In this document: one piece after another, positions 25,897 to 51,191 of the stretch
Layout of the letters: every line of letters begins with the position of its first letter
Numbering within the stretch: position 1 is the stretch's first letter
Virus record (IMG/VR): IMGVR_UViG_3300029787_005093
Direction: 5' to 3' (one strand)
Length of the DNA: 64,000 nucleotides
Origin: an uncultured virus (IMG/VR IMGVR_UViG_3300029787_005093)
Taxonomy: Duplodnaviria > Heunggongvirae > Uroviricota > Caudoviricetes
The notes under the pieces: model-generated
What the model was told of the DNA's origin: nothing
The model's database searches: none
The model's input: the letters and a program-made list of their open reading frames with translations, nothing else
Position numbers and translations under genes: made by a program

Positions 25897-25929
25897 TAAA
25901 TATAGGTAAAAAACCTTTTATAGGCAACT
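25897..25929 (-). promoter_or_regulatory. Repeated promoter upstream of hsp20
   Basis: AGTTG-N20-TATATTTA. Confidence 0.7.
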
Positions 25930-26891: not shown

Positions 26892-29213
26892 TTAATGTCC
26901 GTCTCTCCAGTTATCAGATATTTCAGGAGGAGCTTTTAAAGTAACTCCTTCTAGCTTCGTAGTATTCTCCATTATCTCTTGAACTATAGGAGCAAACTCA
27001 TCAGCTTGATCTTCCTTAACATTTATTAATAACTGATCATGTACTTGTGCTTGAACTATAGCGTCTATGCCAAGTTCTTTTGCTTTTCTATTAATCTGTA
27101 CTGCTGCTCTATTAACTACCGCAGCTGCTAAAGACTGAAGTTGAAAATTAAGACAGTTATTAAGACCATTACGAAAATCTCTATATACTTGAAGTACTTG
27201 AGCTCTTCCATATTGAGGTTCTAACTGCTTTCTAAATCTCCAATCTAAAAACCTATCTTGATATTTAGCATAAATTTTATGCACTTTAGGTAAATGTCTT
27301 ATTCTACCTACATGGTTCTTTATCCAACCATGAGCTTTAACTTGCAATCTAGAATTTTCTCTCCACTCTTTAAGTTGAGGAAAACCATCTAAATAACCTT
27401 TAATTAAGTCTTCAGCAGTTCTTTGATCTACTCCTAAAGTCATTTTTAATGCAAAAGCTTCCATTCCGTATGCAACTCCTAATGAATATGCTTTAGCTTT
27501 ATTTCTCTTAACAGGATCTAATTTTTTAAGATAGTTATCAGCTTTTTTATCAGCAGATACTCCTTCTAATCCTTCAGTCTGTATAGCTACATAAGAATAA
27601 AAATCTAAACCGTTATTAAAGATTTCTTGTAGTTTTTTATCTCCAGTTACCGAAGCAAAACAATGAGGTTCTAAAGATTCGTAATCTGAGTCAATAACCT
27701 TTCTACCGTCACCAGCAACTAAAAACCCTCTTACCAAATTATTATATTTAACTATAACAGGAGCATCTTCTCCTTCTTCTTTAGGTTTAGGCAGCTGTTG
27801 AGCATCAGATCCATATCTACCAGAAACAGTACCATTCTGCTTAAAGTAAAAATAGTACCTTCCATCTTCATTTCTATCTATAAACCTATCAACATAAGTA
27901 GATTTTATTTTAAGTAGTTTATTATATATTCTTAAATTTTCAGCCCAAGCATAAGTTTTAGATAATTCATCTAACATTTTCATATCAAATTGATCTTGAC
28001 CTTTTCTAGTTTGAGACTTGGCTTTTATACCCATATACTTAAAGCAGATTTCTCCTAAATGCTTTTTAGACTGAATATTAATATGATCACCATCATTAGA
28101 CTCTTTCCACATAGACATAGAGATACGAGCTACTTCAACAGGATCTAATAATTCAATATCACCAGTTTTAAGAAACTCTTTTTGAATACTATCATCTAAA
28201 GCATCTATATTTTTAGCTGTTATAGAGTATTTACCAGTTTTTTCACTTTTAGGTAAGTTTAACGAATATCTAATTACTAACTGCTGAGCCCAGTTACCTT
28301 TATGAGAAGGAGGATAAGTACTCATAGCAGTATCCATAACCCATTTCTTAGCTTCAGAAGTATCTAATAAACTTTTCATTACTATTCCTTTATTCTTTTC
28401 TAAGTCTTCAGTAATATTTTTATGAGTTTCATATAATAAGTCCATATCTAAATCAACTCCACATGCTTCCATAGGTATAGTTACTTCTCTATATACAGGC
28501 ATTACTTCCTCTTCAAAGAAAAACTTTTCTAATCCTTCTTCTTTTAATTTTTCAAGATATAAATTACATATACGTAAAGTAAGATCGGTATCGGCAGAAG
28601 CATATTTAGATAGTATATCTAAGTCAGCTTTATAAATCTCAAACTTTAATTTAGTAGTTTCACCGCCATTCTTCTTAATACTTTCTTTTAGTTCTATCTG
28701 CTCTTCGTTTGCTGCTTTTTCCACATCTAAACCTAAAGCTTTTTGATTCATAATAGCAATAGATTTCAAACCAAAAGGATTACCATATCCAAAAGCGCCT
28801 TCTTCATAAACAGTATGAACTAATAAACCAGTATCAACCCATATATCATCTATAAGATCTATACCAAAATAATTTTTTATAAACTGAACGTCAAAAGAAG
28901 CATTATGAAATACTAATTTTTTACCTTTTAACGCTTTAAATAAATTTTTAGAAATAGTTTCAGTAGAAGTATTATCTATAGTTTGAAGTTCTAACTCATC
29001 TTTTTCAAAATTCCATAATAAAGTAGGAATATAAAAACCTATACCTTCATCACCGGAAACAGACCATCCAACTATCTTATCTTTTCTAGGATTAAGACCA
29101 GACGTCTCTGTATCCACAGCAAGAACATCACAATCATTTATATGCTGATACATTAGTTTAAGCGTATCAGAATCTTGAACAGTATAATACTTTTTTTCTA
29201 TTTGCATAACCAT
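26892..29213 (-). CDS. polA: Family-A DNA polymerase with 3'-5' exonuclease
   Basis: DTETSGL, HNASFD, YASAD (exonuclease); DYESLE, KAYSLGVAYG, QVHDQ (polymerase motifs A, B, C). Confidence 0.95.
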   Translation of the reverse strand: MVMQIEKKYYTVQDSDTLKLMYQHINDCDVLAVDTETSGLNPRKDKIVGWSVSGDEGIGFYIPTLLWNFEKDELELQTIDNTSTETISKNLFKALKGKKLVFHNASFDVQFIKNYFGIDLIDDIWVDTGLLVHTVYEEGAFGYGNPFGLKSIAIMNQKALGLDVEKAANEEQIELKESIKKNGGETTKLKFEIYKADLDILSKYASADTDLTLRICNLYLEKLKEEGLEKFFFEEEVMPVYREVTIPMEACGVDLDMDLLYETHKNITEDLEKNKGIVMKSLLDTSEAKKWVMDTAMSTYPPSHKGNWAQQLVIRYSLNLPKSEKTGKYSITAKNIDALDDSIQKEFLKTGDIELLDPVEVARISMSMWKESNDGDHINIQSKKHLGEICFKYMGIKAKSQTRKGQDQFDMKMLDELSKTYAWAENLRIYNKLLKIKSTYVDRFIDRNEDGRYYFYFKQNGTVSGRYGSDAQQLPKPKEEGEDAPVIVKYNNLVRGFLVAGDGRKVIDSDYESLEPHCFASVTGDKKLQEIFNNGLDFYSYVAIQTEGLEGVSADKKADNYLKKLDPVKRNKAKAYSLGVAYGMEAFALKMTLGVDQRTAEDLIKGYLDGFPQLKEWRENSRLQVKAHGWIKNHVGRIRHLPKVHKIYAKYQDRFLDWRFRKQLEPQYGRAQVLQVYRDFRNGLNNCLNFQLQSLAAAVVNRAAVQINRKAKELGIDAIVQAQVHDQLLINVKEDQADEFAPIVQEIMENTTKLEGVTLKAPPEISDNWRDGH

Positions 29214-29224
29214 TTTATATTATA

Positions 29225-29257
29225 TTAATATACGAAAAATAACTATAAGAAACAACT
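29225..29257 (-). promoter_or_regulatory. Repeated promoter upstream of polA
   Basis: AGTTG-N20-TATATTAA. Confidence 0.7.
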
Positions 29258-29270
29258 AATTCGGGTAGTT

Positions 29271-29528
29271 TTATGATTCTCCATATAAATCCCATACTTC
29301 AGGTTCTGGTTCTGGCAGATTTACTTCTTCTTCTATAATTGCAAATAATTTACCATTTAAAGGTTCTAATCTATAGTGACCTTTAAATTTAGTTTTACGC
29401 ATATATTGAGTTAAAGTTTGAACTAAACCTTCAACAATATTTTCTTTATCTATTACTAACTCCCAGTTATCTCCTGGAGGAACTCTTTCAGCTATTAGTT
29501 TTAAATTTTCTATTTTTTCTTTTCCCAT
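29271..29528 (-). CDS. Hypothetical protein
   Basis: ORF in operon; IAERVPPGDNW. Confidence 0.55.
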   Translation of the reverse strand: MGKEKIENLKLIAERVPPGDNWELVIDKENIVEGLVQTLTQYMRKTKFKGHYRLEPLNGKLFAIIEEEVNLPEPEPEVWDLYGES

Positions 29529-29942
29529 TTAATAGTCTTTATCTGTATAACTACTTCTTTTTATAAATAACCAAGCTTGACCTGGTCCTTCATTTTCAGG
29601 TTTCATTACTATTAAGTGTATTCCTTTTAAAAAGAATAATAATCTATATTCTTCATTATATTTTTGAACATATAGATATTCATCTTCTACTGTAAAACTT
29701 CCTTCTACTGTAATGTTTCCTGATTTTCTTTTAAAAGTATCTCCTTCATTAGAATAATACATATAAAGAATCTGTTCATTATCAAAACTTACAAAAGTTC
29801 CATAAATATCTTCAGTTGGAGTAGCAAATCCAATCTTCCTTTCTTGACTATAACATGTAGTTGAGTACATAAAAGCTAGAAGAGCTATAATAACTAATAA
29901 TACTTTACCAAAAGCATTCATATCTTTATCATTTATAATCAT
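29529..29942 (-). CDS. Hypothetical exported protein
   Basis: N-terminal hydrophobic signal. Confidence 0.55.
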   Translation of the reverse strand: MIINDKDMNAFGKVLLVIIALLAFMYSTTCYSQERKIGFATPTEDIYGTFVSFDNEQILYMYYSNEGDTFKRKSGNITVEGSFTVEDEYLYVQKYNEEYRLLFFLKGIHLIVMKPENEGPGQAWLFIKRSSYTDKDY

Positions 29943-30154
29943 AATCCACCTAATTTAGTTATTTCATCAGTTAACGTATTTAAAGCTTCTGTAATTTCTT
30001 TTTCAGCTTCATTTACTGTATTATTTACTTTATTTAAAGTAGGTTCAGTTTCTGCTATAGTTTCTTCTATATATTCTTTTACTATACTGTAAGGAATCAT
30101 ATCAGTTTTTAATGATTCTACATAAACAACATGTTCTTCTAATTTTAATGCCAT
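29939..30154 (-). CDS. Hypothetical protein
   Basis: ORF in operon. Confidence 0.5.
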   Translation of the reverse strand: MALKLEEHVVYVESLKTDMIPYSIVKEYIEETIAETEPTLNKVNNTVNEAEKEITEALNTLTDEITKLGGL

Positions 30155-30156
30155 AA

Positions 30157-30681
30157 TTATATTCCTATATGTTCTTGTGGTCTAGTTCTACTTATATCTC
30201 TGTCAGTAAAAAATTTTCTAAGATCAGGTCTAAAATAGTTTATAGATTTCATAACTTTGTTATCCCTTGATCTATAGACAATGTACCGTCCCTCCTCAAT
30301 TTTTTCAAAATGACAGGCCTCACCTTGTTCCTCAGCTCTTTGGCTGACGGTCTGTATGGCTTCTTCTTCAGTTTTGCAAGCTTTACTAAGATTACTTGCT
30401 TGTACCTCCATATATGCTGGCCATATCTTATCCTTAAGGCCATGTAACATAGTACCGTTCCCAACGGAAACATAAGCAATGTCGCACAAAGCGTCCAAAA
30501 CTTCCACAATGTCGCCCCTCTCGCAAGCTTCTCTATATTCTTCGAGTTCTTCGAGAATAAAATCATAGACGAATTTCCATTCTTTTTCTTCAGGGATAGT
30601 AGGTTCATAATTATTTGGTTTATTAAATGTATCGTTAAACTCTTCAACCTCTGATACAAAAGGTACATACTCTTTTTTCAT
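30157..30681 (-). CDS. MazG/PRA-PH-like nucleoside-triphosphate pyrophosphohydrolase
   Basis: ILEELEEY...EVLDALCDIAYV, EVQASNLSK, KVMKS. Confidence 0.8.
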   Translation of the reverse strand: MKKEYVPFVSEVEEFNDTFNKPNNYEPTIPEEKEWKFVYDFILEELEEYREACERGDIVEVLDALCDIAYVSVGNGTMLHGLKDKIWPAYMEVQASNLSKACKTEEEAIQTVSQRAEEQGEACHFEKIEEGRYIVYRSRDNKVMKSINYFRPDLRKFFTDRDISRTRPQEHIGI

Positions 30682-30682
30682 A

Positions 30683-31576
30683 TTATTGTCTTAAAGTTTT
30701 CTTAATAATAAATTCTGGGTTATCAAAAAATTCTGGTATTAAAGAGGTATGAGAAGCTCTAATTGGATTAATATCTATCCCTCCTCTTCTAGTATATAAA
30801 CAGGCTACCATTAATTGATCAGGTTCATAAGCATCGACTAAATGTTTATATACCATTTCACATATTTCTTCATGAAAGTGACTTACTGTTCTATGACTAA
30901 CTATATATTTAGCTAAAGATTCAGCAGTAGGTAATTTTTTACCTTTTAATCTAATAAATACATCACCCCAATCAGGTTGATTAGTTACTCTACAATTAGA
31001 TCTAAGTAAATTAGAAGTAAATTTAACTTCTCCATCTTCTTCATTAACTTCCAATTGAGAAGAATCAGATTTAAAAGCAGTAAAGTCTATTGCATCTAGA
31101 TTAGCTTCTTCTGCTATATCTACATACCCCTGAAAGCTCATAGGTTCTGTTTCTATATCACTAGCATAAAAAGTTATAGTAGTATTAGTTTCTAATAACT
31201 CATCTAAATCTCTTTTAACTCTAGATTCTATACCTTTAATACAATCAGCTGCAGTGTCTCCAATCTTAGTCATATTAAATGAATTAAGATATAGTTTTAT
31301 TGACTTAGATTCTACGTGAAACTCACTCGAAGCAGGACATACTATTTTTAACATCCCAGCTACAGGCTGACCCTTAGTAGTAATAGCAGATACTTCATAT
31401 GCATTCCATGTATCTACTCCTACAAATTCTTTTCCAGTAAGATTATAAGTTTCTCTATTTAATACTCTAGGTACTTTAACTAATAGGTCTCTATTATATT
31501 GATCGCTATACCCGTCACCTCCTACTTTACCTAAATGCTTACCAGCAATTTCTTTTACTTTATTTTGATTATCCAT
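30683..31576 (-). CDS. queF: NADPH-dependent preQ0 reductase (two-domain type)
   Basis: DTWNAYE, VESKSIKLYLNSF, LRSNCRVTNQPDWG, FHEEICE, YTRRGGIDINP; probable start MDNQ at 31576. Confidence 0.93.
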   Translation of the reverse strand: MDNQNKVKEIAGKHLGKVGGDGYSDQYNRDLLVKVPRVLNRETYNLTGKEFVGVDTWNAYEVSAITTKGQPVAGMLKIVCPASSEFHVESKSIKLYLNSFNMTKIGDTAADCIKGIESRVKRDLDELLETNTTITFYASDIETEPMSFQGYVDIAEEANLDAIDFTAFKSDSSQLEVNEEDGEVKFTSNLLRSNCRVTNQPDWGDVFIRLKGKKLPTAESLAKYIVSHRTVSHFHEEICEMVYKHLVDAYEPDQLMVACLYTRRGGIDINPIRASHTSLIPEFFDNPEFIIKKTLRQ

Positions 31577-31934
31577 TAAATATTTGTTTTTTACCACCCT
31601 CATAAACATAAGCGTGACCATTTTCGATTAATAACTGATTTAACGATTTATCTTCACCATCAATAAATATTTCAGCTAATACTCTACCGTATTTACCTTT
31701 TCCATATGATTGAATAGTAAAATTACCATCGTTTAATTCTAGATAAGTTGCAGTAAAAGCAGTAGCTGCTAAACCTTTAATTTTTTCTGCCTTATCTCTA
31801 GTTCTTTTCTCCCAGGTATCAACACCTTTGAACCTTAACCTAGCTTTAACCCAGGTATCGAATCCTAGATCGATCATAACATCTGCTGTATCACCGTCTA
31901 CGACTCTTACTAATTTTGCTTTATACTTATACAT
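31569..31934 (-). CDS. Thermonuclease (SNase-like)
   Basis: RVVDGDT, RLRFKGVDTWE, GKYGRVLA, LNQLLIENGHA. Confidence 0.88.
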   Translation of the reverse strand: MYKYKAKLVRVVDGDTADVMIDLGFDTWVKARLRFKGVDTWEKRTRDKAEKIKGLAATAFTATYLELNDGNFTIQSYGKGKYGRVLAEIFIDGEDKSLNQLLIENGHAYVYEGGKKQIFNG

Positions 31935-32448
31935 CTATAAATTTTAATATCTGTTCTACCCTTTGCATAGGTGAACCTGTTATCGTCAAATAAGGTTGAC
32001 GTACACCTGTTAATACTGCTTCGAATTCATTATCAATTTTAGTTCTCCATTCTTCGTCTATACTTCTTACTCCATCATCTACTGATTCGAATTCTATAGG
32101 AAAGTAAATATAATGAGTATATTCATTTTTAATTCTATTCCAAATATCTTCTATATAATTATACGTTCTAGGTTTTATTTTTTTCATAAACTTAGAGTAA
32201 ACTAATACATCCATATAGCATCTATCTAATACTTGGTTATACGGTTGAAGTAAAGCTTCTAAATGAAAACTACTAATAGCTAATTGAGTAGCATCTGTTC
32301 CTTTTTCGTTTATAGGAAAACCATAATTACCTACAGTTCTAGTAGATTCATTTACAAATTCGTACTTAGGTAACTTATTTTTAAGTAACTCATATACAGT
32401 AGTCTTACCAGTACTGCTTGCTCCTACTAATGCTACTCTTTTTATCAT
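31927..32448 (-). CDS. P-loop nucleotide kinase (NadR/AAA_28-like)
   Basis: GASSTGKTT, LDRCYMD, DDGVR. Confidence 0.75.
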   Translation of the reverse strand: MIKRVALVGASSTGKTTVYELLKNKLPKYEFVNESTRTVGNYGFPINEKGTDATQLAISSFHLEALLQPYNQVLDRCYMDVLVYSKFMKKIKPRTYNYIEDIWNRIKNEYTHYIYFPIEFESVDDGVRSIDEEWRTKIDNEFEAVLTGVRQPYLTITGSPMQRVEQILKFIDV

Positions 32449-32981
32449 AAAACCTTTTTTAATAAACTAATCCACATAGACAATGCTCTATCTCTTAATA
32501 TACGAAATAAACCGTTAAGATCCAAACCATAAGTATTAAATTCTTCTGATAATATTATCTCTCCTTCGTCTACTCCTCCGCTAACTTTATGAAGAACTGC
32601 TCCTGCAGTTTTATATTTACCTTCAAAAGCTCTTATTTGAGGATCTTTACCTTTAAGCTCTGGGTATTTAGTAATTAATCCAGGATGTCCATTATAAATG
32701 TTAGATCTTTCACAAACATATTCCGGAACTATTCTTAACCATCCATGTAAAGTAACTATTGCCTTAGAATTAGCTTCTAATAATTCTATATAATCCTCTT
32801 CAGACGGTTTATTAGCCCAGGTAAAGTAACCTTGCTTTTCTATTCTAGGATCTATCGTTCTTAAATCTTCTGGTCTTTCATTAGTAATAATGATATCAGG
32901 CCATCTTCCTAAAGCTTCTGAAAGATCTGCTATTTCAGAACCTGTCTGACTAAAAAATGTTATCCAACGCGTGTTTGCCAT
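32445..32981 (-). CDS. PurN-like formyltransferase; candidate preQ1 formyltransferase (DpdN-like)
   Basis: HGWLRI, NGHPGL, HKV...VDEG formyl-THF motifs; inside the deazaguanine cluster. Confidence 0.8.
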   Translation of the reverse strand: MANTRWITFFSQTGSEIADLSEALGRWPDIIITNERPEDLRTIDPRIEKQGYFTWANKPSEEDYIELLEANSKAIVTLHGWLRIVPEYVCERSNIYNGHPGLITKYPELKGKDPQIRAFEGKYKTAGAVLHKVSGGVDEGEIILSEEFNTYGLDLNGLFRILRDRALSMWISLLKKVL

Positions 32982-33771
32982 TAGTAATCCATCTAAATTT
33001 TTGTATATTATTTTTTATTATATCTAATTGATCTATATTAATATCTGAGTTTATTAATTCAAATAATTTTTGAGATTCTTTAGACCAAAGTCCTTCTGAT
33101 CTATAACTAATTTTTTTTATTCCATGCACAACAGGATTAGAGGTATCTAAAGAATATAACCAATTATAATCTGAATGTTTATAAAAAGCAAATTCTTGAG
33201 GTAAACTACAGCCTAACAAATGATGCGGCTTTTTTTTATTTATAATACCGTCTTTAAGTAAATCTCCTAGTAACTTAACACGTCCTAGCATCCAACTAAC
33301 ATATTTATTAGCATGAGGAACTGATTTAGTATAATACGAATAATCGAATGATATAGCAATCATATCTACTTTTGCTACTTTATCCATATATGAATAGCAA
33401 TCTACTATTTCATTATAAGTTTTACCTTGAACAACTCCTATTTTTTTACCTGGTACATTGAAATATTTTCTATTCCAATCCGACATTTTATTTATAGTGC
33501 CTTCTGCATCCTCTAAAACGTCGGGAACTATATACCAGGAGGGTCTAAGATCATCAACCCAATATTTAAACTTTTCTGCATCGAAAGCTTCTTCTAATTC
33601 AAATATAGAATTATCTAATATAATTTCTCTACCTTTAGAAGCTGCAGTTTTAAATTGCTTTAAGTATTCCTCATCTTCTTCAAATAAATGAACTAAAGCA
33701 TAATCATAATCAGTAAATCTTTGAACTTCTTCAAATATACTCTTAGGACTTTCATGTGCTATTTTAATCAT
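32950..33771 (-). CDS. dpdA: Divergent TGT-fold protein; candidate DpdA (7-deazaguanine insertion)
   Basis: ILDNS, PDV, GVVQG, HLLG and SLDTS occur in TGT motif order; lies between folE and the formyltransferase. Confidence 0.65.
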   Translation of the reverse strand: MIKIAHESPKSIFEEVQRFTDYDYALVHLFEEDEEYLKQFKTAASKGREIILDNSIFELEEAFDAEKFKYWVDDLRPSWYIVPDVLEDAEGTINKMSDWNRKYFNVPGKKIGVVQGKTYNEIVDCYSYMDKVAKVDMIAISFDYSYYTKSVPHANKYVSWMLGRVKLLGDLLKDGIINKKKPHHLLGCSLPQEFAFYKHSDYNWLYSLDTSNPVVHGIKKISYRSEGLWSKESQKLFELINSDINIDQLDIIKNNIQKFRWITNGKHALDNIF

Positions 33772-33774
33772 ACC

Positions 33775-34488
33775 TTAATGTTTACAAACTCCTGCGAGTT
33801 CAATATTTTTATAAAATTCAGCTTTTGCTGATGCTTCGTTTAAGAATGCTCCAGTAAGTTTAGCTGTTTGCATAGAAGCACCTCCATGCTTTACTCCTCT
33901 ACATGATACACATGCATGAGTTGCATTAACTTGTACTGCTACTCCTAAATTACCTTCACATATTTTATCTACTGCATTATGAATAGCTACGGTTAACTGC
34001 TCTTGTATAGCTCCTCTTCTACCAAACTGCTCTACTATTCTATTTAGTTTAGATAATCCTACTACCTTCCCATCTTCTGAAGCAATATAAGCAATACTTA
34101 CTGTACCTCTAATGGCTTGATGGTGATGCGAACACATAGAAGTTACTGGTATGTTACTCTCTTGTACTATGCCGTCATAACCATCTGAAGGAAATGCTGT
34201 AATACGGTCTAATGGGTTATACCTTCCTGCCCATAAATCATTAACATAAGCTTTAGCTACTCTAAAAGGAGTATCAGAAGAGTTAGGATCGTCTTTATAA
34301 TCACATCCTAAAGCAGTTAAGAAATCTGCATATGCTTTAGCAGCATTTTCTATAATAACTTCTTTCTCTTCTTTAGTTAACTTTGCTTCAGGTCCTTCTA
34401 CTTCTTGTTTTTTTGCTAATTGACTTGAAATACCGTTTGCAAAACCGGCTCGTACTAATTCAGTACCTTCTATAAACTTCTTTGCCAT
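33775..34488 (-). CDS. folE: GTP cyclohydrolase I
   Basis: TPFRVAK, SMCSHH, GLSKLNR, QEQLT, HACVSCRGV. Confidence 0.95.
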   Translation of the reverse strand: MAKKFIEGTELVRAGFANGISSQLAKKQEVEGPEAKLTKEEKEVIIENAAKAYADFLTALGCDYKDDPNSSDTPFRVAKAYVNDLWAGRYNPLDRITAFPSDGYDGIVQESNIPVTSMCSHHHQAIRGTVSIAYIASEDGKVVGLSKLNRIVEQFGRRGAIQEQLTVAIHNAVDKICEGNLGVAVQVNATHACVSCRGVKHGGASMQTAKLTGAFLNEASAKAEFYKNIELAGVCKH

Positions 34489-34493
34489 ATAAT

Positions 34494-34525
34494 ATAATAT
34501 AAGAATTTTAAATTAATTTTCCAAA
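34494..34525 (-). promoter_or_regulatory. Repeated promoter upstream of folE
   Basis: TTTG-N20-TATATTAT. Confidence 0.6.
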
Positions 34526-34935
34526 TAATTTTGTATCGTTTTTGAATCTTTTTTCTCCCAAGGGTAAACTATCCATCCATAATTTTTAGATATTTCTTTT
34601 GCAAAAACATCTGGTTTAAAAGATGAAATTTCTTTATAATGTAATGCTCCAGTTATACCATTATATACTTCTTTTCTTAAATTTTCAAAAGTCTTACCTG
34701 AATCTGCTATATCATCTATAATTAATAGATCTGGGTAATGATTACTTGTATGTTCTAGATAAGTTACATTAAATCTATGTGAATAAAGTATTGCTAAAAT
34801 AGTACCTCCTCTTGGTATACCAGTTACAAAACCTACTTTATCTTTTACTTGTTCATGAATATTATCTAAAAGTTCATAAACATCATCCCATGTTAAATAT
34901 ATTTTTTTTATTCCCATGAATGGTTCATTGTCCAA
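34513..34935 (-). CDS. Type I phosphoribosyltransferase (Gpt/xanthine PRT-like)
   Basis: LTWDD, GIPRGG, IIDDIADSGKT, WIVYPWE. Confidence 0.85.
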   Translation of the reverse strand: MDNEPFMGIKKIYLTWDDVYELLDNIHEQVKDKVGFVTGIPRGGTILAILYSHRFNVTYLEHTSNHYPDLLIIDDIADSGKTFENLRKEVYNGITGALHYKEISSFKPDVFAKEISKNYGWIVYPWEKKDSKTIQNYLEN

Positions 34936-34998
34936 AAGGTATCATCTATTTCTATTGTACCTATAATAACTGTATTGTCCATCGTTTAAATTTATTAA

Positions 34999-35778
34999 TT
35001 AGACTTCTCTTTGATCTTCGAAAGCTATAATATGAGGCCTCCAAGTCATTCTATAACCATTATCTCTAACCCAATCAAATAATACTGGGTAAGATTTATA
35101 TAATGCTTCTCTACTATCACCTGCTGGCATAAACCAGACTTTTTCCTTAGGTGCTTTCAATATACCTAAACATTGCATAATTTCATCTAAAGCTGTTTCA
35201 TCTTTACCATCCCATACAGGTTTAATATGATAATCTGAGTGATAATCTATGCTTTGTTTTATAGCAGAATAATTTAATCTAAATTTATTATGCTTTCTAA
35301 TCATATTTTCATCTGTTATACCACCTTGAGGTGTTTCAACACCAAGTACGGGGACGCTATTACTAAACTTGGGACTAATAGAAAGCAAGTTAATAGGGTA
35401 ATCAGTAGGAAGAAAATGGCTACCTTCAGTCTCAATAGTAATAAAAATATTTCTTTCATTTGCAAAATGTGTTAGTTCGTTTACTAGTTTTTTATGCATG
35501 GTTGGAGATCCTCCAGTAAGCATCATTTCTGATATCTGAGGATTATCATCATACATTTTTATTATATCGTTAAAGCTATATTTACCTTTTTCAGGATGTA
35601 TACTTGTATACCAAGAATCACACCAACCTCCTTCACCGAAATAACATCTATGCGTACAACCTGTAGTTCTAATTACTACGGTAGGATAACCTGCTCTTGA
35701 TCCTTCTGATTGAACTGCAGTATAAACTTCGACTATAGGTAAATTTTTATCGTAATCTTGAATTCTACCTAGGCTCAT
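34999..35778 (-). CDS. queE: 7-carboxy-7-deazaguanine synthase (radical SAM)
   Basis: VQSEG..AG.P.V.IR..GC, CTHRC...WCDS, LTGG.P, IETEG, ISPK; probable start MSLG at 35778. Confidence 0.9.
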   Translation of the reverse strand: MSLGRIQDYDKNLPIVEVYTAVQSEGSRAGYPTVVIRTTGCTHRCYFGEGGWCDSWYTSIHPEKGKYSFNDIIKMYDDNPQISEMMLTGGSPTMHKKLVNELTHFANERNIFITIETEGSHFLPTDYPINLLSISPKFSNSVPVLGVETPQGGITDENMIRKHNKFRLNYSAIKQSIDYHSDYHIKPVWDGKDETALDEIMQCLGILKAPKEKVWFMPAGDSREALYKSYPVLFDWVRDNGYRMTWRPHIIAFEDQREV

Positions 35779-36232
35779 ATATTGCTGTGTTTTTACTATG
35801 TTCTCTAAATTCAACTTTTGCTATTTTTACCCTCCCTTCGGTTTCTTCTTGTATAAAAGGGTTAAGTTTATCGAATAAAAATTGTGCAAATCTTTCTCCT
35901 CCTGTTGCTGGTATAACTCTAACTTGAGCTACTCCTGCTTCAGACATTTTTAAGAAAGAATCTTTAAAAGGATCATCTTCTGCTACAATAAATGTATGAT
36001 CAAACATATGATCCATCCATGCTTTAGGAGACATACCATCAATAGTTCCTTTAGCTCTCTTCATTCCTCCGAAATCCCAGACCCAATTACGATCGTCTAG
36101 TTTTCCTTCAAACCAAATTTTAAATGAAATACCATACCCATGTAGATATTTGCAGTGGGTAGTTTCTGCACGCCACTGTCGGAAGACAGTAGAAAAGCCA
36201 TCAAAGACTTTAGTAGATTGAAATTTACTCAT
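35765..36232 (-). CDS. queD: 6-carboxy-tetrahydropterin synthase
   Basis: HCKYLHGY, WVWDFG, FDH, E...NTA.Y. Confidence 0.85.
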   Translation of the reverse strand: MSKFQSTKVFDGFSTVFRQWRAETTHCKYLHGYGISFKIWFEGKLDDRNWVWDFGGMKRAKGTIDGMSPKAWMDHMFDHTFIVAEDDPFKDSFLKMSEAGVAQVRVIPATGGERFAQFLFDKLNPFIQEETEGRVKIAKVEFREHSKNTAIYEPR

Positions 36233-36263
36233 TTTGTGTTTTTAAGTGGTGCTACGACACTAT
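36233..36263 (-). ncRNA. Candidate preQ1-I-like riboswitch in the queD 5' leader
   Basis: AGUG-UCGUAGCAC-CACU stem-loop plus the A-rich tail UAAAAACACAAA abutting the AUG. Confidence 0.45.
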
Positions 36264-36277
36264 AGTCAATAATAATA

Positions 36278-36310
36278 TAAATATAAGAACTTTTTGATTA
36301 ATAAACAACT
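36278..36310 (-). promoter_or_regulatory. Repeated promoter upstream of queD
   Basis: AGTTG-N20-TATATTTA. Confidence 0.7.
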
Positions 36311-36314
36311 ATTA

Positions 36315-36425
36315 CTAAAAGTTTTTATAAGTAAAAGGATCTCTTTTTTTAAGTTCCTTAATTTTCTTTTGATAAGCTTTTTCTCTTTTATAATCAGCGA
36401 TTTTACGCTTTATCCATTTTATCAT
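36315..36425 (-). CDS. Small basic protein (36 aa); not in the ORF track
   Basis: MIKWIKRKIADYKREKAYQKKIKELKKRDPFTYKNF; ATGA overlap with the carbamoyltransferase stop. Confidence 0.55.
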   Translation of the reverse strand: MIKWIKRKIADYKREKAYQKKIKELKKRDPFTYKNF

Positions 36426-38083: not shown

Positions 38084-38286
38084 TTTTTTATACCAAATTT
38101 AGAAAATTTATACCAAGTTCGTTCGTGTAGGTAGTAAAGCACCATTTTGGAAAAAACCTCTATTCCCCCTATAGCCAAACCTACTTCCCAAGAACCCGTT
38201 ATTAGTCCTGAAATTATTATTGTATCTAATGTTCCTACTATACGCCATGTAACTGATTTTAATATATGTCTTTTATGTGCAACCAT
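38080..38286 (-). CDS. DUF2061-like small membrane protein
   Basis: KSVTWRIVGT, YYLHERTW. Confidence 0.75.
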   Translation of the reverse strand: MVAHKRHILKSVTWRIVGTLDTIIISGLITGSWEVGLAIGGIEVFSKMVLYYLHERTWYKFSKFGIKK

Positions 38287-40483: not shown

Positions 40484-41278
40484 CTATTGTGCGTACTCTG
40501 CAAGTACCTTGGATACTGAAGCTTTTGCTACTTCATAATCCACCGGACCAGTTTCGTCTTCATATTGAACAGGGTCTTTCCTACCCAAAGCAATGAATGC
40601 TTCAATTCGTTCAACAGATGAAGCAGACTTATAATCACTGTTCCCACTAGGAAAAGGCTTATAACTAGTATTAGTTCTAGAATAGACTTCATCGAAATCA
40701 ATATTTAAATTTTTACATAATCCTTCTCCGTCTTTTAAGATACCTAACTTATCAGTATCTAAATAAGGCGTGAAGTAACCAACTCTTTCAGCCTCCCAAT
40801 TACCAATTCTAAAAGCTGCATCATCTGCATCTCTAAATTCTTGTCTACAATCAGGATATACTGCATGATCACCAGCATGTATTCCTAAACAAATATCAAC
40901 ATTTTCTTCTGTATCATTAGCTTTTGATAAAGCTACTGCTTGAGTAATAGAAGCGAACATCTTATTTCTATTAGGTACTACTGTTTCTTTCATATTGTCT
41001 TGCTCATAATGCCCTTCTGGAACGTCATCACCTCCTTGTACTAAAGAAGAATTTAATAAGTCAACTAAACCATCAAGTTTAATCTGCTTATACGTTACAT
41101 TGTGACCTTTACTTGCCAAATAATCTATAAGAGCTTGTGCTCTTTCTAATTCAACTCTATGTTTTTGACCGTAATCAAAAGATAAAGCTGTTACTGAATT
41201 GTACTCAGATAACGCTCTGAGTAAAAGTGTAGAACTATCCATTCCTCCACTTAGCGAAACAACTGCATGTTTATTCAT
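40484..41278 (-). CDS. queC: 7-cyano-7-deazaguanine synthase
   Basis: SGGMDS, FDYGQKH..E, VPNRN, YPDCR. Confidence 0.95.
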   Translation of the reverse strand: MNKHAVVSLSGGMDSSTLLLRALSEYNSVTALSFDYGQKHRVELERAQALIDYLASKGHNVTYKQIKLDGLVDLLNSSLVQGGDDVPEGHYEQDNMKETVVPNRNKMFASITQAVALSKANDTEENVDICLGIHAGDHAVYPDCRQEFRDADDAAFRIGNWEAERVGYFTPYLDTDKLGILKDGEGLCKNLNIDFDEVYSRTNTSYKPFPSGNSDYKSASSVERIEAFIALGRKDPVQYEDETGPVDYEVAKASVSKVLAEYAQ

Positions 41279-48483: not shown

Positions 48484-50202
48484 TTATCCATCACAACTTA
48501 AACAATCTTCAGATGTTCTTGAACCAATATCTCCATTGATTACAGAATCTGTTCTTAAATAATATAATGTTTTTATTCCTAACTTCCAAGCAGTTTGGTG
48601 AACTAAATTGATAAATTTTGGACTATCATTAGGATCAAATGCTAAATTTAATGATTGAGTTTGATCTATATACTTTTGTCTAGCAGCTGCTTGTTCTACT
48701 AACCCTAATTGATTTATTTCAGAAAATGTAAGAAATATCTTTTTATCTCCATTTGGACAAACACTATCTGGTAAGTTTGCTACAGATCCTCTATCTTTCA
48801 TTATTTGATCCCATACTTCTTCTGTATTAGCTCCTTTTTCTTCTAAATACTGCTCTAAAGCAGGATTCTTTCTTATAAAAGTACCTTTAGCAGAATTAAA
48901 AGTATAAACGTTAGCAGGTAAAGGTTCAATACCAGCAGAGATACCTCCTGTAATAGTAGAATTAGAAACTGTTGGTGCTATTGCTAATACATGAGTATTT
49001 CTCATACCTGTACCTCTACACCAAACCGGTTCTCCGTATTCATCTGCTAATTTTCTTGATGCTGCATTAGCTTGTTCTCTAATCTGAGAAAATATTTTAT
49101 GAGTCCATGAAGTTGCTTCTATAGATACAAAAGGAATTCTTTTATTTTGTAAAAATGTTTGCCATCCTAAAACACCTAATCCTATTGCTCTACCTTTTTT
49201 AGCTGATCTATGAGCTCTAACTAAAGACTCTCTACCAGAAGTTTTATTTAAAAACTCTTCCATTACACCGTCTAAAAAGTATACTCCTGTTTCAACTAAA
49301 TCTGTATTTTTCCATTCTTCATATTTAGCTAAATTTAATGAACTTAAACAGCATATAAATGAATGTTCCTCATCTGTAAATAATGTAATTTCTGAGCATA
49401 TATTAGTCATGGTTACATCTAAGTTATTTTTTACATAAGCTTGAGGATTAGCATTATTAACGTTATCCTTATACATTATATAAGGTTCTCCAGTTTCCAT
49501 TCTAGACTTAAGTATTTGTATCCATAAATCTCTTGCTTCAGTATTATTTCTCTCAAGTTTTTGCATAAACTCGTCATCTACTACTACACATTGGTGAAGA
49601 TTAAGACATTGTCTATTAGGATCTCCTTTTGGTCTTCTAATTTGTAAAAATTCTTCTATATCTGGGTGATTAATATCTAAATTTACTGATGCTGCACCTC
49701 TTCTTACTGCACCTTGATTAGTAGCTATAATTGTTGAATCATATATTTTAGCCCAAGGTACAACTCCTTCAGAATTACCTAAATTTTCATGTCCTCCAAT
49801 ATTAGCTCCTCTACCTCTAATTTTAGATAAACCAATACCTACTCCTCCTCCTAAAGAAGTTAATCTCATTAATTCAGCATTAGTTAACCCTATTCCTCTT
49901 ATAGAATCTGGTGTATCTATACCGAAGCAAGAAATAGGTAAACCTCTATCAGTACCAGTATTAGATAATACCGGAGATGCTAGGTTTAACCATCCTTTCC
50001 ACATATACCTAAAAAATTTATTAGCTAAATCTACTCTATCTAATCGCTGTGCTATTCGATTAGCTACTCTTCTATAAGCAGTTTTAGGAGTTTCATCTGG
50101 TAGTAAATAACCTTTAGAAATTGTGGCTAAAGAGACATCTGTCATCCACTCAGGATAATCTTTGCCTTTTTCCCACTGGGAAATATCGGTTGTATATGAC
50201 AT
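48484..50202 (-). CDS. nrdA: Class I ribonucleotide reductase alpha subunit (short, no ATP cone evident)
   Basis: ASPVLSN, ISCF, NICSE, CCLSSLN, APTVSNS, DQTQS, KTLYY, C-terminal CLSCDG. Confidence 0.93.
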   Translation of the reverse strand: MSYTTDISQWEKGKDYPEWMTDVSLATISKGYLLPDETPKTAYRRVANRIAQRLDRVDLANKFFRYMWKGWLNLASPVLSNTGTDRGLPISCFGIDTPDSIRGIGLTNAELMRLTSLGGGVGIGLSKIRGRGANIGGHENLGNSEGVVPWAKIYDSTIIATNQGAVRRGAASVNLDINHPDIEEFLQIRRPKGDPNRQCLNLHQCVVVDDEFMQKLERNNTEARDLWIQILKSRMETGEPYIMYKDNVNNANPQAYVKNNLDVTMTNICSEITLFTDEEHSFICCLSSLNLAKYEEWKNTDLVETGVYFLDGVMEEFLNKTSGRESLVRAHRSAKKGRAIGLGVLGWQTFLQNKRIPFVSIEATSWTHKIFSQIREQANAASRKLADEYGEPVWCRGTGMRNTHVLAIAPTVSNSTITGGISAGIEPLPANVYTFNSAKGTFIRKNPALEQYLEEKGANTEEVWDQIMKDRGSVANLPDSVCPNGDKKIFLTFSEINQLGLVEQAAARQKYIDQTQSLNLAFDPNDSPKFINLVHQTAWKLGIKTLYYLRTDSVINGDIGSRTSEDCLSCDG

Positions 50203-50213
50203 TAATATATAAT

Positions 50214-51191
50214 TTAAAATGCGTTACCCCAATCTACTGTACCCTTAGAGTAATTAGTAACTCTATTAGCAAAGAAATCGGTTTGTTGCTTACCTGCAAT
50301 AACTGCGTCAAACCATTTCATAGTTTTTAAAGCTCCTTTATCTATATCAGATGAAGGCACAATAGGTTCTAATCCTAAGTCGCTCATTTTGGTGTTAACT
50401 CTATGTTTAATAAAATTCTTTAATTCGTCCTTAGTAAGATTTTCTAAATCTCCTAATTCAAATACTTTATCAATGAAGTCAAATTCTAATTTTAAAGCAA
50501 GATCAGCAGCTTCTGCTATTTCTTTCTGTAATTTTTTTGTTTTAAATTCAGGATGTTCTTTCATTAAAGTCCTAAATAACCAACAGCCTGCATCTGAATG
50601 TAGTGATTCATCTCTTACAGACCATTCTACTATTTGACCAATACCTTTAAGTTTATTTCTCATTTTAAATGATAATAAAACTGCAAAAGAAGAAAATAAA
50701 TTAACTCCTTCGGTAAAAGCAGAAAAAATTGCTAAAGATTTAGCTCTTTCTTTCCAATTAGGTTTACCGTCATGAGAATCTCTTACTTCCATCAAAGATT
50801 CAATTTTATTCATTGTAGCTTCATCTTCTAAAAACTCAGCAAAGTCATCTAGACCTAACTGCTCATTTAATAATGAATAAGCTTCAGCATGAATAGTTTC
50901 AAATGCTCCAAAAGTAGTAGCCATTGCAATAACTTCTGGTTTTCTAAACCATTTAGTAACTAACCCTGTCCAGTAATCATTTACTACTGTTTCAGTTTGT
51001 GCGAAACCTTTAAGAATAGCTCCTACTAAATTCTTTTCCGAATCAGTTAAAGTCGATTTCCAATCAGTAACATCTTGTGCCATAGGTACTTCTGTATGTA
51101 ACCAATGTGCTTGTTGTTGTTTCATCCAATAATCAAAAGCTTTTGGATATTCAAACGGCTTATAAACTATTCTTTCTTTTAATAAACTCAT
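50214..51191 (-). CDS. nrdB: Class I ribonucleotide reductase beta subunit
   Basis: ETIHAEAYS, EGVNLFSSF, RDESLH, DFFANRVTNY. Confidence 0.93.
   Translation of the reverse strand: MSLLKERIVYKPFEYPKAFDYWMKQQQAHWLHTEVPMAQDVTDWKSTLTDSEKNLVGAILKGFAQTETVVNDYWTGLVTKWFRKPEVIAMATTFGAFETIHAEAYSLLNEQLGLDDFAEFLEDEATMNKIESLMEVRDSHDGKPNWKERAKSLAIFSAFTEGVNLFSSFAVLLSFKMRNKLKGIGQIVEWSVRDESLHSDAGCWLFRTLMKEHPEFKTKKLQKEIAEAADLALKLEFDFIDKVFELGDLENLTKDELKNFIKHRVNTKMSDLGLEPIVPSSDIDKGALKTMKWFDAVIAGKQQTDFFANRVTNYSKGTVDWGNAF

What the first reader, a model, noticed from the sequence alone, without database searches (positions are those of the whole stretch)
30157..36232. Full 7-deazaguanine pathway with extra enzymes suggesting precursor-level (pre-replicative) G replacement
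Seen: contiguous queD, queE, PRTase, folE, TGT-fold gene, formyltransferase, P-loop kinase, SNase, queF and MazG-like gene, with queC at 40484. QueF has the reductase motif and catalytic Cys/Asp. Known: FolE-QueD-QueE-QueC-QueF makes preQ1, and DpdA proteins put deazaguanines into DNA. From recall, formylated preQ1 with near-complete G replacement was reported in a Flavobacterium phage with a divergent DpdA and a formyltransferase. Inference: the Gpt-like PRTase, kinase and MazG-like enzyme are not needed for post-replicative base exchange. They fit a route of base to nucleotide to dNTP with dGTP depletion, analogous to PurZ/MazZ in Z-genomes. The SNase could then destroy unmodified host DNA.
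Basis: partly seen in the sequence, partly recalled or inferred. Interest (0 to 1): 0.85.

Follow-up and report, generated by a model that had tools for sequence, protein, structure and literature searches.

The report
Phage gene cluster replacing guanine in DNA
A marine phage carries the full gene set for swapping the guanine in its DNA for a formylated 7-deazaguanine, and the extra kinase, phosphoribosyltransferase and nucleotide-cleaving genes that travel with it hint that the swap may begin on free nucleotides rather than on finished DNA.

Summary
Window 30157-36232 (minus strand) encodes, tightly packed, QueD, QueE, a small Gpt-like PRTase, FolE, a TGT-fold DpdA3, a PurN-like formyltransferase (DpdN), a P-loop kinase, an SNase, QueF and a MazG-like hydrolase. 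QueC lies at 40484-41278.

[quoted passage not shown] It is therefore a new member of a known kind.

That paper concludes that insertion is post-replicative. In the text I searched it has no occurrence of "phosphoribosyl" or "kinase".

Comparative genomics here:
- An AAA_28 kinase, nearest in fold to nucleoside kinases, accompanies DpdA3 in 34 of 34 well-flanked viral loci. It is also adjacent to DpdA3 in Campylobacter phage CP220.
- All three phages with proven complete replacement (immuto, CP220, phiST) carry DpdA3, the small PRTase and a nucleos(t)ide kinase. Phage 9g (DpdA1) and the deoxyinosine phage NCTC12673 carry none of them.
- The PRTase is absent from two complete DpdA3 phage genomes and is replaced by a canonical HGPRT in other lineages. 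It is therefore not an obligatory entry step and fits guanine salvage better.
- SNase is accessory (12 of 34 loci).

A nucleos(t)ide-level, pre-replicative step is plausible (about 0.5) but unproven.

The parts
35765..36232 (-). QueD (6-carboxytetrahydropterin synthase)
   Evidence: Pfam PTPS 1.4e-14; PHROG QueD-like 7.6e-40
34999..35814 (-). QueE (radical-SAM 7-carboxy-7-deazaguanine synthase)
   Evidence: Pfam Radical_SAM; PHROG QueE-like 4.6e-52; NCBIfam QueE models below cut-off
34513..34935 (-). Small Gpt-like 6-oxopurine phosphoribosyltransferase (likely start 34917)
   Evidence: PHROG PRTase 6e-15. PDB 1vdm 9e-8 and Sulfolobus GpT-1/GpT-2. NCBIfam xanthine PRTase 1.1e-8, below cut-off. 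PRPP-motif residues D68, D69, D72, G74 and T76 are invariant in 32 sequences.
33775..34488 (-). FolE (GTP cyclohydrolase I)
   Evidence: Pfam 7.8e-42
32950..33771 (-). DpdA3-family transglycosylase (TGT fold)
   Evidence: 74% identical to the immuto DpdA and 43% to CP220 gp056. AF2 pLDDT 96.7. TGT/DpdA are the top structural matches. D53, D84, H184 and D209 are invariant in 72 sequences.
32445..32981 (-). DpdN-like formyltransferase (PurN family); overlaps the DpdA3 gene by 32 nt
   Evidence: Pfam Formyl_trans_N 2.4e-8. NCBIfam PurN 3.3e-10, below cut-off. 54% identical to immuto DpdN. Fused to DpdA3 in P0179, P0202 and L126.
31927..32448 (-). AAA_28 P-loop kinase of NadR-RNK/deoxynucleoside-kinase type
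   Evidence: Pfam AAA_28 7.1e-18. Profile against PDB: NadR 4.8e-6, dNK 7.1e-6, dGK 1.3e-4, TMPK 6.6e-3. AF2 pLDDT 91.6. Foldseek: NadR TMq 0.80, then dAK, dNK, dCK and dGK.
31569..31934 (-). Staphylococcal-nuclease-like nuclease (accessory)
   Evidence: Pfam SNase 1.3e-9; PHROG endonuclease 9.7e-39; present in 12 of 34 related loci
30683..31621 (-). Bimodular QueF (preQ0 reductase; likely start 31576)
   Evidence: Pfam QueF_N 3.1e-27 and QueF 1.2e-18; TIGR03138 4.6e-69, below cut-off
30157..30681 (-). MazG/PRA-PH-like all-alpha nucleoside-triphosphate pyrophosphohydrolase
   Evidence: Pfam PRA-PH 3.4e-10; PHROG nucleotide pyrophosphohydrolase 7.3e-29; 71% identical to the immuto 'hydrolase'
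40484..41278 (-). QueC (preQ0 synthase), 4.2 kb upstream of the block
   Evidence: Pfam QueC 2e-38
48484..51191 (-). Class I ribonucleotide reductase large and small subunits (context)
   Evidence: Pfam Ribonuc_red_lgC 1.8e-103 and Ribonuc_red_sm 1.7e-66
26892..29213 (-). Family A DNA polymerase (context)
   Evidence: Pfam DNA_pol_A 6.9e-57

Best explanation
The block is an immuto-type fdPreQ1 system. FolE, QueD, QueE and QueC make preQ0. QueF reduces it to preQ1. The PurN-like DpdN formylates the aminomethyl group, and the product ends up replacing G in the phage DNA.

My best reading is that at least one essential step happens on a free nucleoside or nucleotide, before polymerisation:
- DpdA3, a TGT-fold enzyme with all catalytic residues, puts the deazaguanine onto a (deoxy)guanosine monomer in exchange for guanine.
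- The always-linked nucleoside-kinase-like AAA_28 kinase phosphorylates the product towards the dNTP.
- The MazG-like enzyme converts dGTP to dGMP, which clears the competitor and perhaps feeds the exchange.
- The Gpt-like PRTase recycles the released guanine to GMP and GTP for FolE.
- The phage polymerase then incorporates the modified dNTP.

Shown: gene content, folds, conserved catalytic residues, and gene linkage across lineages. Inferred: every substrate and the order of steps.

For: (1) Kinase linkage.
- 34 of 34 non-redundant viral loci with at least 8 kb on both sides have the AAA_28 kinase within 10 kb of DpdA3. The comparison figures are FormylT 33, QueF 33, FolE 31, MazG 28, PRTase 23 and SNase 12.
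- The DpdA3-kinase pair is kept in phages with different polymerases: L106 (PolB), L078, L108 and L030; L126 and L122.
- It is also adjacent in CP220, gp056-gp057. CP220 has no formyltransferase in that neighbourhood, so the kinase goes with DpdA3 and not with DpdN.

(2) Kinase type. Its nearest relatives by profile and by fold phosphorylate a nucleoside 5'-OH.

(3) Whole-record profile searches.
- Immuto, CP220 and phiST, the three phages with measured complete replacement (PMC10516641), all have DpdA3 and the small PRTase.
- Immuto (tblastn) and CP220 (two copies) have the AAA_28 kinase.
- phiST and Brevundimonas phage StAshley instead have a T4-type dNMP-kinase-like gene next to the PRTase and RNR.
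- 9g (DpdA1; for its cluster) and the deoxyinosine phage NCTC12673 have none of the three.

(4) An NTP-cleaving enzyme recurs beside DpdA3 in different folds.
- MazG-like in the window, L030 and L120.
- An HD domain fused to a P-loop in CP220 gp055.
- A dUTPase/DCD-like gene inside the cluster in lineages without MazG. No locus with a hit carried both.
- A MazG/dUTPase-like CGPG_00068 in phiST (PMC10516641).

(5) PMC10516641 (passages) reports three relevant points. Free ADG nucleoside was detected in CP220-infected cells. DpdA3 could not be made to work in their E. coli DNA-modification model. DpdA3 phages are the only ones with complete replacement.

(6) TGT-fold enzymes already use non-nucleic-acid acceptors: the entry title of Cap10 describes an NDG-modified CdnD complex, and it scores Z 15.0.
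Against: - Every characterised DpdA acts on polymeric DNA, and DpdA3 keeps the same catalytic set. I know of no TGT-fold enzyme acting on a mononucleotide.
- The authors who measured the modification conclude that it is post-replicative.
- The kinase family also occurs in 89 Streptomyces phage records, and the one neighbourhood I inspected (Samisti12) shows no deazaguanine genes. The family is therefore not specific to this pathway.
- MazG-like and dUTPase genes are common in phages generally.
- The PRTase is missing from two complete DpdA3 genomes.
- phiST and StAshley lack the AAA_28 kinase, so the kinase step is not uniform.
- Absence of the Zn subdomain and an acidic pI do not discriminate, because the DNA-acting DpdA1 of 9g shares both.
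- The loci are phylogenetically related, so 34 of 34 is not 34 independent events.
Confidence: 0.5

Rival explanations
1. Post-replicative exchange, as published. DpdA3 is an unusually efficient DNA transglycosylase that replaces every G in replicated phage DNA with (f)preQ1.

The PRTase, kinase and MazG only manage pools. Each exchange costs one GTP (for FolE) and frees one guanine. Guanine goes to GMP (PRTase), then to GDP (kinase) and GTP, which closes the loop.

Alternatively the P-loop protein could be an ATPase partner of DpdA3, as DpdB is for bacterial DpdA.
For: - Homology and conserved catalytic residues with DNA-acting DpdA: profile hit to 7ui4 over the HLLG...D motif; Z 17.4; residue roles from PMC10164549.
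- bDpdA needs the ATPase DpdB.
- A canonical HGPRT fills the PRTase slot in some lineages, as expected for plain guanine salvage.
- The conclusion of PMC10516641.
Against: - A nucleoside-kinase-like fold is a poor fit both for a GMP kinase and for a DNA-remodelling ATPase.
- The kinase persists in complete genomes that have no PRTase, so the salvage loop is not intact there.
- An NTP pyrophosphatase has no role in this scheme.
- DpdA3 alone gave no DNA modification in E. coli.
Confidence: 0.38
2. The Gpt-like PRTase couples preQ0, preQ1 or fpreQ1 to PRPP. The kinase makes the diphosphate, phage RNR makes the deoxy form, and MazG removes dGTP. DpdA3 is a back-up, acts on DNA as a polisher, or has another function.

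This overlaps the lower-weight variant inside the best explanation. The confidence given here is for this being the main route.
For: - In phiST the order is PRTase, DNMK-like gene, one hypothetical gene, RNR. In StAshley it is RNR, DNMK, FolE, PRTase.
- The window encodes its own class I RNR.
- From recall only, with no call behind it: HPRT-like PRTases act on 7-deazaguanine bases in toyocamycin and tubercidin biosynthesis.
Against: - There is no PRTase of any type in two complete DpdA3 + kinase genomes.
- The kinase looks like a nucleoside kinase, not an NMP kinase.
- The route leaves the invariant DpdA3 unexplained.
Confidence: 0.15
3. The extra genes are generic auxiliary nucleotide-metabolism genes of large phages, and their position in the cluster has no pathway meaning.
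For: - The kinase family is present in many Streptomyces phages, and the one neighbourhood inspected (Samisti12) is a replication module.
- MazG relatives are found in jumbo phages.
- The window holds many other metabolic genes.
Against: - The cluster-internal position of the kinase, between DpdN and QueF, is conserved across distant lineages.
- The small PRTase is restricted to DpdA3 lineages in 50,697 phage records.
Confidence: 0.07

Closest known systems
[quoted passage not shown]
   Same: Same gene set: QueF, kinase, formyltransferase, DpdA3, MazG-like, FolE, PRTase, QueE and QueD, all on one strand. Identities: DpdA3 74%, kinase 67%, MazG 71%, FolE 77%, QueE 80%.
   Different: - The order is rearranged: MazG lies at the end of the block here, but between DpdA3 and FolE in immuto.
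- An SNase is inserted here and is absent in immuto.
- The PRTase is only 39% identical.
- DNA identity is about 77% over 14% of the block.
- The DNA chemistry of this phage has not been measured.
Bacterial DpdA/DpdB and phage DpdA1/DpdA2 DNA-guanine transglycosylases
   Same: TGT TIM-barrel fold. The Asp/Asp/His/Asp set is invariant in DpdA3 and corresponds by position to D95, D130, H181 and D256 of Salmonella DpdA. This correspondence is an inference from a partial profile alignment.
   Different: - No Pfam TGT hit, and a profile E-value of only 0.11 to 7ui4.
- About 64 residues follow the putative nucleophile, against the 128-residue Ins8/Zn region of bDpdA.
- No DpdB-like gene is present; the linked partner is a kinase-like P-loop protein.
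- Associated with complete rather than partial replacement.
- The 9g DpdA1 cluster has no kinase, PRTase or MazG.
Pre-replicative base-replacement systems (T4 hmC: dCTPase, dCMP hydroxymethylase, dNMP kinase; Z-genome phages: MazZ, DatZ, PurZ). Roles are recalled; the S-2L abstract was seen in the listing.
   Same: The same logic of parts is present: an NTP pyrophosphatase, a dedicated kinase, a monomer-modifying candidate, and the phage's own RNR and polymerase.
   Different: None of the enzymes is homologous to PurZ or to dCMP hydroxymethylase. The proposed monomer-level enzyme would be a TGT-fold base exchanger, which has no precedent. No specificity has been shown.
Deazapurine nucleoside antibiotic pathways (toyocamycin, tubercidin); recalled only, not retrieved
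   Same: FolE, QueD, QueE and QueC are followed by a PRTase that attaches a 7-deazaguanine base to PRPP.
   Different: Not tested here and no sequences were compared. Those pathways have no TGT-fold enzyme and do not feed DNA.

Membership tests
DpdA3 subfamily of the TGT/DpdA superfamily | Sequence relationship to the published DpdA3 proteins (immuto, CP220, phiST CGPG_00065) | tested here: met
   74% identity to the immuto DpdA and 43% to CP220 gp056. The profile built around the window protein finds phiST at 2.5e-23.
DpdA3 subfamily of the TGT/DpdA superfamily | TGT-type TIM barrel | tested here: met
   AF2 pLDDT 96.7. Foldseek TGT E 2.8e-8. VIA-align: ArcTGT 18.5, DpdA 17.4, TGT 16.9.
DpdA3 subfamily of the TGT/DpdA superfamily | Catalytic Asp (acid/base), Asp (base recognition), His, Asp (nucleophile) | tested here: met
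   D53, D84, H184 and D209 are invariant in 72 sequences. D209 aligns with the SIDS motif region of 7ui4. Residue roles are taken from PMC10164549. The mapping of the first three is inferred by order, not by superposition.
DpdA3 subfamily of the TGT/DpdA superfamily | Structural Zn site / Ins8 nucleic-acid-contacting subdomain of TGT and bDpdA | tested here: not met
   Only 2 Cys and about 64 residues after D209. The DNA-acting 9g DpdA1 also lacks a CxCxxC motif. The feature therefore defines TGT and bDpdA, not phage DpdAs.
DpdA3 subfamily of the TGT/DpdA superfamily | Guanine/7-deazaguanine exchange in DNA | not testable with these tools
   Needs an enzyme assay. The authors' E. coli test of DpdA3 failed.
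fdPreQ1 pathway (FolE, QueD, QueE, QueC, QueF, DpdN, DpdA3) | All seven genes present | tested here: met
fdPreQ1 pathway (FolE, QueD, QueE, QueC, QueF, DpdN, DpdA3) | fdPreQ1 in virion DNA with loss of dG | not testable with these tools
   Measured only for immuto_2-6A
Pre-replicative base replacement (T4 hmC / Z-genome type) | Enzyme that removes the canonical dNTP | tested here: inconclusive
   A MazG/PRA-PH domain is present, but its specificity is unknown. There is no detectable similarity to solved MazG-type structures beyond E 0.5.
Pre-replicative base replacement (T4 hmC / Z-genome type) | Dedicated kinase for the modified monomer | tested here: inconclusive
   A kinase is always linked to DpdA3 and has a nucleoside-kinase-like fold. 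Its substrate is unknown.
Pre-replicative base replacement (T4 hmC / Z-genome type) | Modification made on a free nucleotide and incorporated by the polymerase | not testable with these tools
   Needs pool analysis and polymerase assays
6-oxopurine PRTase (Gpt/Hpt type I PRTases) | PRPP-binding acidic motif and type I PRTase core | tested here: met
   The DDIxDxGxT residues are invariant. PDB purine PRTases match at 9e-8 to 3.8e-6.
6-oxopurine PRTase (Gpt/Hpt type I PRTases) | Reaches the curated family cut-off | tested here: not met
   Pfam 21.5 against 26.3. NCBIfam xanthine PRTase 34.8 against 138. It is a divergent phage subfamily.
NadR-RNK / deoxynucleoside kinase P-loop kinases (Pfam AAA_28) | Walker A motif, DR motif, LID arginine, and fold | tested here: met
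   AAA_28 65.8 bits against 27. G9, G14, K15, T17, D75, R76 and R128 are invariant. NadR TMq 0.80.
Staphylococcal nuclease | SNase domain above cut-off | tested here: met
   38.9 bits against 21

The most novel reading that the evidence does not exclude
DpdA3 is not a DNA-modifying enzyme. It is the first TGT-fold (deoxy)nucleoside or nucleotide base-exchange enzyme. Together with a dedicated nucleoside-type kinase and a dGTP-cleaving hydrolase it builds a 7-deaza-dGTP analogue that the phage polymerase uses in place of dGTP. Complete G replacement in immuto-like, Firehammervirus and phiST-like phages would then be pre-replicative, contrary to the published conclusion. The Gpt/Hpt-type PRTase would close a guanine-to-GTP-to-preQ0 recycling loop.
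Probability: 0.3. Interest if true: 0.88.

Novelty: new member of a known kind. Interest (0 to 1): 0.62.

Why it matters
7-Deazaguanine DNA is the only known complete purine replacement besides 2-aminoadenine and deoxyinosine, and how it reaches 100% is unsettled.

If a nucleotide-level route exists, several things follow:
- It would overturn the view that these marks are post-replicative.
- It would define a new reaction for the TGT fold.
- It would explain why DpdA3 failed in heterologous tests.
- It would give enzymes for making 7-substituted 7-deaza-dGTPs.

The family is abundant:
- 4316 proteins at E <= 0.001 in the 90%-clustered collection.
- 1508 cluster representatives at 50% identity.
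- At least 536 IMG/VR stretches.

The mechanism would therefore apply to a large group of marine and gut phages. If the published model is right, the window is simply another immuto-like phage.

Tried and rejected
- **Zn subdomain and acidic pI as a clue to a small substrate.** Rejected. The DNA-acting 9g DpdA1 also lacks a Cys cluster and has pI 5.6. The DpdA3 family median is 5.5 (n = 72, 5 above pH 7).
- **Promoter and terminator scan of 29000-42000.** Uninformative: 69 promoter-like sites against 71.6 expected, and 4 terminator-like against 3.2.
- **MazG against solved structures.** Nothing better than E 0.47, so no link to characterised MazZ or MazG specificity.
- **Kinase as pathway-specific.** Weakened. 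89 Streptomyces phage records carry a relative, and the one neighbourhood inspected (Samisti12) is a replication module without deazaguanine genes. The Bacteroides DAC phage neighbourhood is all hypothetical proteins.
- **PRTase as a universal partner.** Rejected: two complete genomes have none.
- **Literature.** Six searches found no paper in the held library describing a PRTase, a kinase or a nucleotide-level route for phage 7-deazaguanines. Subscription-only papers are not covered, including the original Campylobacter phage study cited as reference 6 of PMC10516641, which I could not read. The supplements of PMC10516641 were not opened.
- **Whole genome of the window.** Not held.
- **Earlier findings.** Not open.
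- **Complex prediction.** Not used. A DpdA3-kinase contact would not separate the rival readings.

Full report
**What is there.**
All genes in the window lie on the minus strand of a DNA with about 30% G+C. From 36232 down to 30157 the ORFs overlap or are at most 81 nt apart. A 189-nt gap lies upstream of the first gene.

Pfam, PHROGs and NCBIfam identify the following:

| Gene | Coordinates |
|---|---|
| QueD | 35765-36232 |
| QueE | 34999-35814 |
| Small phosphoribosyltransferase | 34513-34935 |
| FolE | 33775-34488 |
| 273-aa protein with no Pfam match | 32950-33771 |
| PurN-like formyltransferase | 32445-32981 |
| AAA_28 P-loop kinase | 31927-32448 |
| SNase | 31569-31934 |
| Bimodular QueF | 30683-31621 |
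| MazG/PRA-PH-like hydrolase | 30157-30681 |
| QueC | 40484-41278 |

The stretch between QueD and QueC holds a carbamoyltransferase, DUF2061, a split kinase/cytidylyltransferase/HAD set and a 2OG oxygenase. Only two start codons probably need moving: QueF to 31576 and the PRTase to 34917.

**The TGT-fold protein.**
[quoted passage not shown] That makes it a DpdA3 in the sense of PMC10516641.

- An alignment of 72 representatives at 37-60% identity has D53, D84, H184 and D209 invariant.
- The AlphaFold model is confident, pLDDT 96.7.
- Its best structural matches are ArcTGT (Z 18.5, rmsd 3.1, 243 aligned), Salmonella DpdA 7ui4 (Z 17.4), bacterial TGT (Z 16.9) and QTRT2 (Z 16.0). Unrelated TIM barrels score about 13 (Foldseek).
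- By sequence profile the only PDB hit is 7ui4 at E 0.11, over the HLLG...D segment.
- PMC10164549 (passages) gives D95, D130, H181 and D256 as the active-site set of bacterial DpdA. The four invariant DpdA3 residues occur in the same order. I take them as equivalent, by inference.
- DpdA3 ends about 64 residues after the putative nucleophile and has two cysteines, so it lacks the Zn/Ins8 region. The DNA-acting DpdA1 of phage 9g also has no such cysteine cluster and is equally acidic. This says nothing about the substrate.

**Relation to the known system.**
The immuto_2-6A record carries QueF, 'thymidylate kinase', formyltransferase, DpdA, 'hydrolase', FolE, phosphoribosyltransferase, QueE and QueD on one strand. 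Each gene matches its window counterpart at 39-80% identity.

PMC10516641 (passages read) reports the following:
- 345,000 fdPreQ1 per 10^6 nucleotides and no dG peak in that phage.
- The formyltransferase is named DpdN.
- DpdA3 phages (CP220, phiST, immuto) are completely modified.
- All these modifications are concluded to be post-replicative.
- DpdA3 could not be made to work in their E. coli model.
- Free ADG nucleoside had been detected in CP220-infected cells.

In the text I searched the paper has no occurrence of 'phosphoribosyl' or 'kinase'. The window is thus a new member of a described kind.

**Are the extra genes linked to DpdA3?**
In 50,697 phage records the small PRTase is found by tblastn in 19: immuto (4), phiST-like Cellulophaga phages, Campylobacter phages, two Brevundimonas phages and one 4-kb fragment. 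I ran the DpdA3 profile on one record from each of the four named lineages, and it found a DpdA3 in each: immuto 5.9e-116, CP220 9.7e-85, phiST 2.5e-23, StAshley 9.1e-11.

Profile searches of whole records give this table (immuto kinase and PRTase):

| Phage | DpdA3 | AAA_28 kinase | Small PRTase |
|---|---|---|---|
| immuto | + | + | + |
| CP220 | + | + (two copies) | + |
| phiST | + | - | + |
| StAshley | + | - | + |
| NCTC12673 (deoxyinosine phage) | - | - | - |
| 9g (DpdA1) | - | - | - |

phiST and StAshley have a T4-type dNMP-kinase-like gene instead (PF21448, 3.2e-5 and 1.8e-11). It lies next to the PRTase and close to RNR. In CP220 the order is HD-domain/P-loop fusion, then DpdA3, then AAA_28 kinase.

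**Metagenomic relatives.**
Two scans of IMG/VR gave 98 loci with a DpdA3 at 51-98% identity to the window protein. Of these, 41 have at least 8 kb on both sides, and 34 remain after dropping rows with identical identity profiles.

Genes found within 10 kb of DpdA3 in those 34 loci:

| Gene | Loci of 34 |
|---|---|
| Kinase | 34 |
| Formyltransferase | 33 |
| QueF | 33 |
| FolE | 31 |
| QueD | 29 |
| MazG | 28 |
| QueE | 27 |
| PRTase | 23 (one of them Hpt-type) |
| QueC | 19 |
| SNase | 12 |

These loci are related to one another, so the counts are not independent events. Even so, the DpdA3 - (DpdN) - kinase - QueF order recurs in phages with other replication modules:
- L106: PolB, then DpdA3, a small ORF, DpdN, kinase, QueF.
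- L078 and L108.
- L122, with UvsY/UvsW.
- L126: split PolA, kinase, a DpdA3::DpdN fusion, a dUTPase-like gene and a YhhQ-type transporter.

DpdA3::formyltransferase fusions were seen three times: P0179 and P0202 and L126. The two enzymes therefore act on neighbouring steps.

- **The PRTase is not universal.** The small-PRTase profile and Pfam PF00156 both find nothing in two complete genomes (direct terminal repeats, CheckV 100%) that carry DpdA3 and the kinase (G001 and G005).
- **The PRTase can be swapped.** Three incomplete relatives, and L064 in the same cluster slot, carry instead a canonical HGPRT (TIGR01203, 153.6 bits against a cut-off of 150). Two different 6-oxopurine PRTases filling one slot is most simply read as a need for the ordinary activity, guanine to GMP. 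Each base exchange frees one guanine and each deazaguanine costs one GTP.
- **The kinase looks like a nucleoside kinase.**
  - By profile: NadR 4.8e-6, deoxynucleoside kinase 7.1e-6, dGK 1.3e-4, thymidylate kinase 6.6e-3.
  - By fold: NadR with nicotinamide riboside TMq 0.80, then dAK, dNK, dCK and dGK, with TMPKs lower.
  - The fold families are related, so the acceptor (5'-OH or phosphate) is not settled.
- **The kinase family is not pathway-specific.** It also occurs in 89 Streptomyces phage records. The one neighbourhood inspected (Samisti12) shows no deazaguanine genes.
- **SNase is accessory.** Nothing links it to discrimination of modified from plain DNA.

**What supports a monomer-level step.**
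- The kinase follows DpdA3 rather than DpdN. CP220 makes dADG and has no formyltransferase near gp056, yet it keeps the pair.
- An NTP-cleaving enzyme recurs next to DpdA3 in unrelated folds:
  - MazG-like in the window, L030 and L120.
  - HD domain in CP220.
  - MazG/dUTPase-like CGPG_00068 in phiST.
  - A dUTPase/DCD-like gene inside the cluster in lineages that lack MazG. Every locus with a hit had one or the other, never both.
  - dUTPases and MazG are common in phages, so this is suggestive only.
- The window has its own class I RNR.
- The TGT fold is already known to take a non-nucleic-acid acceptor: Cap10, whose entry title describes an NDG-modified CdnD complex, scores Z 15.0.

**Reading.**
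I put about 0.5 on a pathway with an essential nucleoside- or nucleotide-level step. Within that, the version that uses every conserved gene is as follows:
- DpdA3 exchanges guanine on a deoxyguanosine monomer.
- The kinase phosphorylates the product.
- MazG converts dGTP to dGMP.
- The PRTase recycles guanine.

The published DNA-level exchange, with the extra genes serving GTP supply or with the P-loop protein acting as a DpdB-like partner, gets about 0.38. No tool here can show a substrate, so these are odds and not findings.

**Literature coverage.**
Six full-text searches found no paper in the held library proposing a PRTase, a kinase or a nucleotide-level route for phage 7-deazaguanines. 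The 2026 gp119 paper states only that dI in Fletcherviruses 'likely' arises through dITP. The original Campylobacter phage study and the supplements of PMC10516641 were not seen and may bear on this.

Noticed in passing
window 1613-2794, 5584-6129, 6122-6610, 25928-26881: A RuBisCO-like protein (type III/MtnW-like, below cut-offs), an MTA/SAH-nucleosidase-like protein, an adenine PRTase (NF002636, 141.5 bits against a cut-off of 125) and a SAM synthetase. Together they look like a SAM / 5'-deoxyadenosine / adenine salvage set in a phage that runs a radical-SAM enzyme.
   Followed up: partly
window 36422-39917 and 41933-48475: Between QueD and QueC, and beyond QueC, lie two or three carbamoyltransferase genes (one apparently split, 44296-45417 and 45480-45941), several glycosyltransferases, and a split kinase / cytidylyltransferase / HAD set that matches one PHROG 'kinase' family in two pieces. 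This looks like a sugar-nucleotide module. Whether it touches DNA is unknown.
   Followed up: no
window about 33679-33718: A 39-40 nt stretch inside the DpdA3 gene is 97% identical to the DpdA3 genes of Campylobacter Firehammerviruses, although the proteins are only about 43% identical.
   Followed up: no
P0179, P0202; L126:8001-9365: Natural fusions of DpdA3 with the formyltransferase domain (447-454 aa). In the window the two genes overlap by 32 nt.
   Followed up: partly
L126:7438-10826: A phage-like contig from a gut MAG carries an AAA_28 kinase, a DpdA3::DpdN fusion, a dUTPase/DCD-like gene and a Vut_1 (YhhQ-type) transporter. No synthesis genes lie within 5 kb. This suggests import of the base rather than synthesis.
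   Followed up: no
L030:6093-10861 (complete 188-kb viral record G005): DpdA3 sits with MazG-like, an AAA_28 kinase and a GNAT acetyltransferase. There is no formyltransferase or QueF within 10 kb and no PRTase in the genome. It may make a different derivative.
   Followed up: partly
L132:3422-8519; L134:3061-9766: Actinobacterial contigs (an Actinoplanes MAG and a Longispora isolate) have a distant DpdA3-like ORF (26-29% identity) beside an HhH-GPD glycosylase-superfamily gene, an FAD protein, a thymidylate-kinase-like gene, a PfkB kinase and a radical-SAM gene. This is a different and undescribed context.
   Followed up: no
L034:7862-8893 and W02:5419-5925 (CP220): CP220 has an HD-domain + AAA_33 P-loop fusion directly upstream of DpdA3, and a second AAA_28 kinase copy elsewhere in the genome.
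   Followed up: partly
window 56031-57353: A second ORF (440 aa) has a weak DNA_pol_A match (32.1 bits, below the cut-off of 34.3), in addition to the full PolA at 26892-29213.
   Followed up: no
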